Below, one piece after another: positions 16,858 to 17,524 of a stretch of 57,228 bases of DNA; position 1 is the first letter of the stretch; each line of letters starts with the position of its first letter. Location of the stretch: sequence record MK524177.1; one strand, given 5' to 3'. Made by a program: the position numbers and the translations under genes. The stretch is from Escherichia phage PHB10. Under the pieces are notes generated by a model. It was given only the letters and a program-made list of their open reading frames with translations, ran no database searches and had not been told where the DNA came from.

Positions 16858-16894
16858 GGTCTCTCACCTCGCTAAGTGCGGGTGCTGTTGCTAG

Positions 16895-16920
16895 AAAAAA
16901 AAGGCTGCCAAACGGCAGCC
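16895..16920 (-). terminator. tR'-like intrinsic terminator in the late leader upstream of the holin
   Basis: Hairpin ggctgcc-aaac-ggcagcc followed on the minus strand by U8, 38 nt upstream of the holin ATG. Confidence 0.55.
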
Positions 16921-17117
16921 TGATGATGATTTATACTCTTCGGCGCTTCTCTCTCCTTAAGAAAGCAATAGATTAAACAATCCTTAAGGAGAGTCATTTA
17001 AACAAAAAAATAATTAACCTTTAACATAGTTTAAAGCTGTTATTATTTACATTAGATCATGCCTTTAGCTTTTGTGGATAAAAGAAAGACAATCGGGCTG
17101 AAGATGGAATTATTATT

Positions 17118-17152
17118 GCGGAGAGGAGTGATGTCGTTCTCCGCGCTTTTTT
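17118..17152 (+). terminator. orphan plus-strand intrinsic terminator in the Q-to-lysis intergenic region
   Basis: Stem gcggaga/tctccgc with 13-nt loop followed by T6; no plus-strand ORF of 60 aa or more upstream. Confidence 0.35.
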
Positions 17153-17260
17153 GTCTCATACGAGCTTGTAATATTTCGAGGATCGTTTTGCTAAAACACG
17201 TACTGAGGTTTAGCACCCCTTCTTAGCCCTGAGGTCCCTTACAAAACACTAGGGAAAAAT

Positions 17261-17288
17261 AAAAAAAAGCCTGCTCGGACAAGCAGGC
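17261..17288 (-). terminator. intrinsic terminator downstream of the tRNA and small-ORF unit
   Basis: Stem gcctgc/gcaggc followed on the minus strand by U8. Confidence 0.5.
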
Positions 17289-17524
17289 ATAAATAGCTAA
17301 GTTGGCAATAACTGAGGGAGTGGTGCCGGGTGCCTCCCGGTGGAAATGATCACAGCATTCATTTCCGCGCGCTGGTTGGACACTCTGGAGAAATGTCCTG
17401 CTGAACCGCCCCTCCGCTTAGGGGGATCCACCACAAAAACGCTTTCAGAAACATCCATTCCGCAGGATGCTTAAGAAGCATATGTGCAGTATTAAGAATC
17501 TGCCACATAATCAGATGAATATAT

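What the first reader, a model, noticed from the sequence alone, without database searches (positions are those of the whole stretch)
16858..17350. Late regulatory region: tR'-like terminator, 12-bp inverted repeat and an orphan opposite-strand terminator
Between the Q-like gene and the holin lies an AT-rich 0.5 kb leader. A strong minus-strand terminator (16895..16920) sits 38 nt before the holin start, as with lambda tR' where Q-modified polymerase reads through. A perfect inverted repeat (ctctccttaag ... cttaaggagag, about 16950..16995) and a plus-strand terminator (17118..17152) with no upstream gene suggest a small RNA or a Q-utilisation structure.
Basis: partly seen in the sequence, partly recalled or inferred. 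Interest (0 to 1): 0.4.

Follow-up and report, generated by a model that had tools for sequence, protein, structure and literature searches.

The report
Phage late-leader terminators and small RNAs
This stretch is the last part of the long untranslated leader in front of a prophage's lysis genes: it holds the end of a known small-RNA gene, a safety terminator just before the holin gene, and a hairpin of unknown role that is invariant in related phages. It is mostly ordinary phage regulation.

Summary
The Q gene (18747-19580, minus strand) lies 1.9 kb from the holin, not 0.5 kb. The real late promoter, with a lambda-like pause element and first terminator, sits beside Q at 18635-18724. In between are a tRNA-Arg, a small ORF and an STnc100-family sRNA (17258-17463).

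Window 16861-17157 is 80% identical to the phage phi80 late leader. In about 30 prophage and metagenome contigs this roughly 300-bp module precedes the lysis cassette, with three unrelated holins and two unrelated Q families. It is therefore not a Q-utilisation site.

The minus-strand terminator (16894-16921) matches phi80's annotated second late terminator. Its pairing is kept or replaced in relatives, so it is best read as the last Q-bypassed safety terminator.

The perfect inverted repeat is specific to this lineage and shows no covariation.

The "orphan" plus-strand hairpin with T-run is the most conserved part of the module. A conserved extended -10 lies about 100 nt upstream, so a convergent antisense sRNA is possible (about 0.35) but untested.

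The parts
18747..19580 (-). Q antiterminator gene (277 aa, lambda-Q family, phi80-like)
   Evidence: Pfam PF03589 E=2e-45. PHROG 127 E=3e-103. 41% identity to phi80 gp17. 79% identity to mEp237 'late gene regulator Q'.
18685..18724 (-). True late promoter PR'-like: -35 TTTACT (18719-18724), extended -10 TGgTAATTT (18697-18705), pause element AACGAT (18685-18690)
   Evidence: Aligns with lambda PR' and its initial transcribed region, CAACGATGGGTTA. The identity of the lambda elements is from established knowledge.
18635..18666 (-). tR'1, first late terminator (the real tR' equivalent)
   Evidence: 12-bp stem, -21.5 kcal/mol, z=-3.8, followed by U5. It occupies the position of phi80's first annotated late terminator at 42070-42098 and resembles it in sequence, both with a GGTTAAC loop.
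17889..17910 (-). Strong intrinsic terminator just upstream of the tRNA gene
   Evidence: 9-bp stem plus U8, -13.9 kcal/mol, z=-4.95.
17805..17881 (-). tRNA-Arg (anticodon UCU) moron
   Evidence: ARAGORN. Rfam tRNA 59.9 bits.
17258..17463 (-). STnc100-family sRNA gene with its own terminator (stem 17269-17288, U8)
   Evidence: Rfam RF02076, 74.1 bits against a gathering score of 47, full length 1-206. Terminator -13.6 kcal/mol, z=-5.0. The same family lies downstream of stx2B in phage 933W (PMC12370729).
16858..17160 (-). Conserved phi80-type pre-lysis leader module
   Evidence: 80% identity to phi80 42124-42423. Found in 22 viral and 10 metagenome loci. Conservation is patchy: islands at 92-97% identity, spacers at about 75%. 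No conserved ORF.
17118..17152 (+). Invariant hairpin GCGGAGA-N13-TCTCCGC plus GC plus T6 (terminator-shaped on the plus strand only)
   Evidence: -14.6 kcal/mol. 31 of 32 columns are invariant in members found without using the hairpin as anchor. The T/A-run is invariant while the 2-nt linker varies. Unique in the window.
17073..17081 (-). DnaA-box-like 9-mer TTATCCACA inside a 96%-conserved block
   Evidence: Sequence reading. Block conservation. The consensus TTATNCACA is from established knowledge. Binding was not tested.
17038..17046 (+). Candidate extended -10 promoter element TGTTATTAT for a plus-strand RNA of about 100 nt
   Evidence: It is the only TGnTAnnnT motif conserved in 14 of 14 distinct family members on either strand. 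There is no good -35. It is a motif only, not evidence of initiation.
16951..16993 (.). Perfect 11-bp inverted repeat (CTCTCCTTAAG / CTTAAGGAGAG), 21-nt spacer
   Evidence: RNA stem -18.2 kcal/mol. In the family only 75% of cells pair and covariation is not above shuffles, 41/500. The loop CTTAAGGATTGTTTAAT is invariant.
16894..16921 (-). tR'2, last late-strand intrinsic terminator before the lysis genes
   Evidence: Homologous to the phi80 annotated terminator at 42362-42385. The stem varies as UG/UA/CG with pairing kept. Different terminators occupy the same place in L021/L023 and L036.
16865..16884 (-). Small hairpin that pairs with the holin Shine-Dalgarno (CACCCGC...GCGAGGTG)
   Evidence: -10 kcal/mol, z=-2.1. 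Nearly invariant in 13 of 14 members. A role in start-site choice is inferred by analogy with lambda S sdi.
16555..16857 (-). Holin gene (100 aa) with a Met-Lys-Met dual-start motif
   Evidence: PHROG 1350 holin, E=1.5e-24. Annotated as holin in phages Eeyore and Fraca. ORF.

Best explanation
The interval is the promoter-distal end of a 1.9-kb Q-antiterminated late leader of a lambdoid prophage. It is not the late promoter region itself.

Transcription starts at a lambda-like PR' beside Q (about 18690). Without Q it stops at tR'1 (18635-18666). With Q, RNA polymerase becomes terminator-resistant and reads through tR'1, the terminator at 17889-17910, the STnc100 terminator (17269-17288) and finally tR'2 (16894-16921), reaching the holin, endolysin and spanin genes. 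This step is inferred from established Q biology and was not tested here.

The leader has accumulated independently transcribed inserts ('morons'): a tRNA-Arg, a 63-aa ORF and an STnc100-family sRNA. tR'2, about 36 nt before the holin start, therefore acts as the last barrier that keeps moron and read-through transcription out of the lysis genes in a lysogen.

tR'2 belongs to a conserved 300-bp pre-lysis leader module shared with phi80. The module travels with the lysis cassette whatever the Q type or holin type.

The module's best-conserved element is the plus-strand hairpin with T-run at 17118-17152. My sub-claim, at about 0.35, is that it terminates a roughly 100-nt antisense RNA. That RNA would start from a conserved extended -10 (17038-17046) and be convergent with STnc100 (or, in phi80, with the short PR' transcript), like the published STnc100/AsxR-type convergent pairs.

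The perfect inverted repeat is a lineage-specific sharpening of a weak, non-covarying hairpin. I assign it no separate function.
For: Gene map: Q, holin, SAR endolysin and Rz/Rz1 are all on the minus strand.

Promoter: PR' and the pause element align with lambda PR'. tR'1 is a strong hairpin.

Terminators: four strong late-strand terminators lie between Q and the holin.

sRNA: STnc100 scores 74 bits against a threshold of 47. In 933W the same family sits in the late leader next to a convergent AsxR. Convergent sRNA pairs downstream of PR' are described in PMC4104026. Short PR' transcripts are reported for lambda, 21, phi80, 82 and P22 in PMC7547250.

Leader module: 80% identity to the phi80 leader, which carries an annotated terminator. 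It precedes three unrelated holins and follows two Q families.

tR'2: pairing is kept through UG/UA/CG changes, and other terminators replace it at the same spot.

Hairpin: invariance and patchy island conservation. The T-run is invariant while the adjacent linker varies. The one variable hairpin position gives A-U to G.U on the plus strand but A.C on the late strand. The only fully conserved extended -10 motif on either strand lies about 100 nt upstream on the plus strand.
Against: There are no transcript data, so Q-dependent read-through and every promoter call are inferred.

The plus-strand promoter is an extended -10 with no usable -35. One TGnTAnnnT match per 300 bp of AT-rich DNA is expected by chance. 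Other weak promoter-like motifs exist on both strands.

Terminator loops normally drift, yet this 13-nt loop is invariant, which suggests a sequence-specific role beyond termination.

There is no Rfam hit for AsxR, AgvB or any other family on the hairpin.

The hairpin lies 100 nt from the STnc100 3' end, whereas AsxR abuts STnc100 in 933W.

The family is shallow (75-97% identity), so there is essentially no covariation: RNAalifold covariation term 0.06.

G.U pairs in the inverted repeat favour the late strand rather than the plus strand.
Confidence: 0.7

Rival explanations
1. The interval is the primary late regulatory region next to Q, with the minus-strand terminator as tR' and the hairpin or inverted repeat as a Q-utilisation structure.
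For: A strong terminator lies just upstream of the holin. AT-rich non-coding DNA is present.
Against: Q ends 1.9 kb away. The lambda-like PR', pause element and first terminator are at 18635-18724. The module occurs downstream of two unrelated Q families and at distances of 190 to more than 2000 nt from Q. L036 encodes the identical Q protein and shows the same promoter and first terminator after Q by eye, yet lacks the module entirely.
Confidence: 0.04
2. The invariant hairpin acts on the late (minus) strand or as DNA, not as a plus-strand terminator. Possible forms are a structured element at the 5' edge of the lysis-mRNA leader (processing, stability or Hfq/CsrA-type binding), or a dyad-symmetric site for a host protein. 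It might work together with the DnaA-box-like block.
For: The 13-nt loop is invariant, which is unlike ordinary terminators such as tR'2, whose loop and stem drift. The hairpin also folds on the late strand at -11.7 kcal/mol, z=-3.4. No convincing plus-strand -35 was found. There is a 9/9 DnaA-box match in a 96%-conserved block. G.U pairs in neighbouring helices favour the late strand.
Against: The A6/T6 run next to the stem is invariant while the 2-nt linker varies, as expected for a plus-strand terminator. The single variable hairpin position is tolerated only on the plus strand. No partner protein is shared by all the phages, so any partner would have to be host-encoded. The dyad occurs once only.
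Confidence: 0.3
3. The conservation reflects history rather than function. The module ends are 'linker' sequences at which lambdoid phages exchange modules by homologous recombination, so the edges (hairpin side and SD side) stay nearly identical. The hairpin, inverted repeat and promoter-like motifs would then be incidental.
For: Mosaic junctions fall exactly at the module's two ends: the A-run/hairpin side and the holin start. The family is young and narrow, with only phi80 among 50,697 phage records and no hits in 100,044 species-representative genomes.
Against: Conservation is patchy, not just edge-weighted. Internal islands reach 96% (65-86) and 86% (161-200) against spacers at about 75%. 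tR'2 shows pairing-preserving changes and functional replacement. A window of 32 columns with at most one variable has a probability of about 5e-4 given 60% invariant columns (my arithmetic).
Confidence: 0.15
4. The AT-rich leader encodes a small protein or a leader-peptide attenuator that controls tR'2.
For: Short ORFs exist: 16872-16997 minus (41 aa) and 17059-17226 plus (55 aa). There is a weak Phe_leader resemblance, 23.8 bits, E=0.09.
Against: The score is far below the gathering threshold of 55. Both ORFs lose frame or stop early in relatives: a 1-nt indel in L002/L007 and 7 codons in phi80. The ORFs run through terminator hairpins.
Confidence: 0.03

Closest known systems
Phage phi80 late leader (JX871397 42124-42423, between the first late terminator and holin gene 18)
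   Same: 80% nucleotide identity over 297 nt. It has the same hairpin (one loop substitution), the same DnaA-like block, the same terminator 40 nt before the holin SD and the same SD sequence.
   Different: In phi80 the module starts 190 nt after Q, directly behind PR' and tR'1. Here 1.4 kb of morons are inserted in between. The holin genes are unrelated. The inverted repeat is degraded in phi80. The phi80 record annotates only the terminator, not the hairpin.
Lambda PR'-qut-tR' (6S RNA) late control
   Same: A Q of the same Pfam family. PR' with the AACGATGGGTTA initial transcribed sequence. An intrinsic terminator that Q must overcome.
   Different: Those elements are at 18635-18724, outside the finding. 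The short transcript would be about 60 nt, against 194 nt in lambda. The finding's terminator is a downstream, additional one. The leader shows no sequence similarity to lambda 44.8-45.2 kb.
Stx-phage late leaders with convergent sRNA pairs (933W/Sp5: STnc100 = late strand, AsxR = opposite strand; Tree et al. 2014, PMC4104026)
   Same: STnc100-family gene in the Q-to-holin leader. tRNA morons and multiple terminators. An opposite-strand terminator hairpin preceded by an A-run on the late strand and facing the STnc100 3' end.
   Different: No AsxR or AgvB homology. The hairpin is 100 nt from STnc100 rather than abutting it. It is part of a separate module that also occurs without STnc100. No expression data exist.
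PasA/PasC sRNA genes directly next to holin-lysozyme operons in EPEC/EHEC prophages (bioRxiv 10.64898/2026.05.13.724894)
   Same: A non-coding regulatory-RNA locus immediately upstream of the prophage holin.
   Different: Pas sRNAs are reported as restricted to Escherichia and Shigella, with thousands of hits. This module is found in only 62 of 5,426 E. coli genomes, all at phi80-level identity and mostly laboratory strains carrying phi80.

Membership tests
Lambda-type Q-dependent late control region (PR'/qut/tR') | Q antiterminator gene immediately upstream | tested here: not met
   Q (PF03589, E=2e-45) is at 18747-19580, 1.4 kb above the interval's upper end. The feature is met for 18635-18724, not for the finding.
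Lambda-type Q-dependent late control region (PR'/qut/tR') | Sigma-70 promoter followed by a -10-like pause element in the initial transcribed region | tested here: not met
   Nothing of this kind is found within 16858-17350. TTTACT-16-TGgTAATTT plus AACGAT is present at 18685-18724 and aligns with lambda PR'.
Lambda-type Q-dependent late control region (PR'/qut/tR') | Intrinsic terminator between promoter and late genes that is read through only with Q | not testable with these tools
   The terminator shape is met at 16894-16921. Q-dependence needs a reporter or RNA mapping.
phi80-type pre-lysis leader module | Alignable nucleotide homology to phi80 42124-42423, including the hairpin, TTATCCACA block, terminator and SD | tested here: met
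   80.3% identity over 297 nt, E=7e-70. Alignments.
Rfam RF02076 STnc100 | Covariance-model score at or above the gathering threshold over the full model | tested here: met
   74.1 bits against 47, model positions 1-206 of 206, window 17258-17463 minus. It is a divergent member: 933W scores 207.7 bits.
Rho-independent terminator (for 17118-17152, plus strand) | GC-rich stem, short loop, U-tract within 0-2 nt | tested here: inconclusive
   Stem of 9-11 bp at -14.6 kcal/mol, with U6 one nt after the stem in the MFE fold. As a plain 7-bp dyad the loop is 13 nt, and the rule-based scan did not list it. z=-2.2.
Rho-independent terminator (for 17118-17152, plus strand) | An upstream transcription unit on the same strand | tested here: inconclusive
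   No gene and no two-hexamer promoter were found. There is only a conserved extended -10 at 17038-17046.
AsxR/AgvB anti-sRNAs (RF02703/RF02702) | Covariance-model match | tested here: not met
   No hit up to E=10 on 16840-17270. AsxR is found at 88 bits in 933W with the same tool.
Leader-peptide attenuator (Phe_leader-like) | Model score above threshold and a conserved leader ORF | tested here: not met
   23.8 bits against 55. The ORF frame is not conserved.
DnaA box | 9-mer matching TTATNCACA | tested here: met
   TTATCCACA on the late strand at 17073-17081. It is kept in 12 of 14 distinct members, with L016 TTATCCACT and L021 TTATCCATG as exceptions. Binding is not testable here.

The most novel reading that the evidence does not exclude
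The invariant hairpin with T-run, the conserved extended -10 and the 96%-conserved TGTGGATAAAAGAAAGACAA block between them may together define an undescribed antisense sRNA gene of about 100 nt. It would be carried by the pre-lysis leader of phi80-type prophages, convergent with STnc100 or with the short PR' transcript. It could either damp leaky lysis-gene transcripts in lysogens or act in trans on host mRNAs.
Probability: 0.3. Interest if true: 0.5.

Novelty: new member of a known kind. Interest (0 to 1): 0.3.

Why it matters
Lysis genes are lethal if they leak, so how temperate phages keep a long, moron-laden late leader silent matters for lysogen stability. In relatives it also matters for toxin and virulence-gene expression from the same leader. 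This locus shows a portable 300-bp pre-lysis module that is kept across different Q and holin types. If its invariant hairpin proves to end an antisense RNA, that would add a new member to the convergent prophage sRNAs known from Stx phages. It could be tested in ordinary laboratory strains that carry phi80 remnants.

Tried and rejected
1. Rfam at permissive thresholds on the interval: only noise (Phe_leader 23.8 bits, sRNA162 and others).

2. Covariation tests. RNAalifold covariation term 0.06. The inverted-repeat helix is not above shuffles. The family is too shallow.

3. Protein-coding readings of the leader were rejected because frames are not conserved.

4. The genome-contig scan with a stem-free hairpin pattern returned only 9 chance matches in unrelated phyla, so the host could not be named.

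5. A hairpin-independent pattern in viral and metagenome collections found no member with a variant hairpin. The extra hits were chance matches or phi80-identical contigs.

6. Homology of the module to the lambda, 933W or L036 leaders: none beyond the SD region.

7. Homology of the 63-aa ORF to lambda orf-64: none.

8. RacR-lysN promoter work on phi80 (PMC6715736) concerns the holin coding region, not this leader.

9. The phi80 genome paper (PMC3510586) is not held, so the basis of its terminator annotation could not be read.

10. Trans-target search for the conserved block within the window: nothing convincing.

11. The late-strand promoter flagged by the scanner (ACGACA-17-AATAAT, 17109-17137) has its -10 in only half of the family.

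Full report
**What is in the sequence**

The late genes run on the minus strand. The holin is at 16555-16857 (PHROG 1350). It is followed by a SAR-type lysozyme at 16019-16558 (PF00959) and by Rz/Rz1.

- A minus-strand intrinsic terminator, with stem 16902-16921 plus U8, at -15.7 kcal/mol and z=-4.9.
- A perfect 11-bp inverted repeat at 16951-16961 / 16983-16993.
- A plus-strand hairpin GCGGAGA-N13-TCTCCGC at 17118-17144, followed by GC and T6 to 17152, at -14.6 kcal/mol.

The AT-rich tract (34% GC) covers only about 16900-17200.

The Q gene is at 18747-19580. It belongs to Pfam PF03589 (E=2e-45) and PHROG 127, is 41% identical to phi80 gp17 and 79% identical to mEp237 Q. The Q-to-holin gap is therefore 1.9 kb.

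Directly after Q lies a promoter, TTTACT-16-TGgTAATTT (18697-18724). Its downstream sequence CAACGATGGGTTA aligns with lambda PR' and its initial transcribed, pause-inducing region (the role of AACGAT is from established lambda work). A strong hairpin with a U-run follows at 18635-18666, at -21.5 kcal/mol. That is the true PR'/tR' unit. It would give a short RNA of about 60 nt, of the kind reported for lambda, 21, phi80, 82 and P22 (PMC7547250).

Between tR'1 and the holin, in late-strand order, lie:
- a plus-strand 94-aa ORF;
- a strong late-strand terminator at 17889-17910;
- tRNA-Arg(UCU) at 17805-17881;
- a 63-aa ORF of PHROG 1856;
- an STnc100-family sRNA at 17258-17463 (74.1 bits against 47, full length) with its own terminator at 17269-17288.

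**The rest of the interval is a portable module**

Window 16861-17157 is 80% identical to phi80 42124-42423. That phi80 stretch runs from just after its first late terminator to the holin start and holds phi80's second annotated 'putative rightward transcription terminator'.

Three independent sequence anchors, plus one hairpin-independent pattern, recovered the module in 22 viral contigs and 10 metagenome contigs. It always lies just upstream of a lysis cassette. It does so with three unrelated holins: the 100-aa type here, the phi80 74-aa type and a 104-aa type in L023. It follows either lambda-family Q (PF03589) or QuuD-type Q (PF06530), at 190 to more than 2000 nt from Q. L036 encodes the identical Q protein and shows the same PR' and tR'1 by eye, yet lacks the module. 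The module is therefore not a Q-utilisation element.

Conservation is patchy:

| Element (alignment columns) | Mean pairwise identity |
|---|---|
| Hairpin with A-run (5-44) | 97% |
| TTATCCACA block (65-86) | 96% |
| tR'2 (248-275) | 92% |
| Extended -10 region (107-120) | 88% |
| SD region (276-316) | 87% |
| Inverted-repeat left arm and loop (161-200) | 86% |
| Spacers | about 75% |

This pattern argues for constraint on discrete elements. No ORF keeps its frame across members.

**The minus-strand terminator**

In the family its stem changes as U.G, U-A and C-G at one pair and C-G/U.G at others, with pairing kept. In L021/L023 and in L036 a different hairpin with a U-run occupies the same position before the conserved SD region. 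This is the pattern expected of a selected terminator.

It is the last of at least four strong late-strand terminators, and promoter-bearing morons lie upstream of it. The most economical reading is that it blocks read-through into the lysis genes in lysogens and is overridden by Q-modified polymerase. The override is inferred, not shown.

**The inverted repeat**

It is perfect only in the window. Across 14 distinct members 75% of cells pair. Covariation does not exceed shuffles (41/500), and a one-column slide still gives 66% pairing. The invariant part is the loop, CTTAAGGATTGTTTAAT. I assign no separate function to the repeat.

**The orphan plus-strand terminator**

This is the most conserved element. 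In members found without using it as an anchor, 31 of 32 columns are invariant. By my arithmetic the chance of this is about 5e-4 given 60% invariant columns. No member with a variant hairpin was found.

Four observations fit a plus-strand terminator:
- The T6-7 run is invariant while the 2-nt linker next to it varies.
- The only variable hairpin position gives A-U to G.U on the plus strand but A.C on the late strand.
- The module's homology ends a few to about 15 nt beyond the T-run, depending on the upstream context.
- The only TGnTAnnnT motif conserved in 14 of 14 members on either strand is TGTTA(TT/CC)AT at 17038-17046 on the plus strand, about 100 nt upstream.

Such an RNA would be convergent with STnc100. 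This is the arrangement Tree et al. described for prophage sRNA pairs downstream of PR' (PMC4104026). I verified it in 933W, where STnc100 and AsxR abut on opposite strands.

Several points count against this reading. There is no -35. One such motif is expected by chance in 300 AT-rich bp. The loop is invariant, unlike ordinary terminators. There is no AsxR or AgvB homology. There is a 100-nt gap to STnc100. There are no expression data.

I put the antisense-sRNA reading at about 0.35. A late-strand RNA or DNA-site role for the hairpin is at about 0.3, and 'recombination linker only' at about 0.15.

**Verdict**

The locus is an ordinary lambdoid late leader built from known kinds of parts. It contains one well-conserved, unexplained hairpin that deserves a strand-specific RNA check, which could be done on public data from phi80-carrying laboratory strains.

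Noticed in passing
window 17258-17463 (-): Full-length but divergent STnc100-family sRNA (74 bits here, against 208 bits in 933W). It has its own terminator and a promoter-like TAATAC upstream. A 2026 preprint links STnc100 to PasD sRNAs.
   Followed up: yes
window 18635-18724 (-): The real late promoter. Its lambda-like initial transcribed sequence (CAACGATGGGTTA) and first terminator predict a PR' short RNA of about 60 nt.
   Followed up: yes
window 17524-17621 (-) / ORF 17525-17716: A sub-threshold Rfam isrI hit (38.5 bits against 45) lies inside a conserved 63-aa ORF (PHROG 1856, unknown function). 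The 'sRNA' resemblance may simply reflect this coding sequence.
   Followed up: partly
window 17805-17881 (-) and 17889-17910 (-): A tRNA-Arg(UCU) moron sits in the late leader, immediately preceded by a strong terminator. This resembles the tRNA genes downstream of PR' in Stx phages.
   Followed up: partly
window 16849-16884 (-): The holin starts Met-Lys-Met, a dual-start motif. Its Shine-Dalgarno sequence can pair into a small conserved hairpin, reminiscent of lambda S sdi control of holin/antiholin starts.
   Followed up: partly
window 17073-17081 (-): A perfect DnaA-box 9-mer, TTATCCACA, lies inside a 96%-conserved 22-nt block of the leader.
   Followed up: partly
window 14588-15082 (-): A moron encoding an Ivy-family inhibitor of vertebrate lysozyme (PF08816, E=1.6e-19) lies just downstream of the lysis cassette.
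   Followed up: partly
window 18750-19580 (-): The Q protein carries four CxxCxGxG motifs resembling the DnaJ zinc-finger domain (PF00684, 29.9 bits, just under the cutoff of 32.7).
   Followed up: no
window 18217-18249 and 18269-18553 (+): Two direct repeats, TAAA(C/A)AGATGACAT, spaced 19 bp apart lie just upstream of an opposite-strand 94-aa putative membrane ORF. The ORF has no family match and is embedded in the late leader.
   Followed up: no
window 17158-17257 (-): The 100-nt spacer between the STnc100 terminator and the hairpin shows weak similarity to the spacer that follows a different terminator in L004, L005 and L010 (CCC..TG..AGAGGAC..GGC..TAAGAGGG.GCTAAA).
   Followed up: no
L048, L055, L056, L058, L072, L075 (metagenome contigs): Leader sequences whose hairpin and 75-nt upstream flank match the phi80 variant turn up in marine and human-gut metagenome assemblies. 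Contamination from cloning strains is one possible source, but this was not checked.
   Followed up: no
window 14547-14580 and 24576-24622: Two perfect 13-bp inverted repeats elsewhere in the window, with gaps of 8 and 21 nt. The first sits between a plus-strand 86-aa ORF and the Ivy gene and may be a bidirectional terminator.
   Followed up: no
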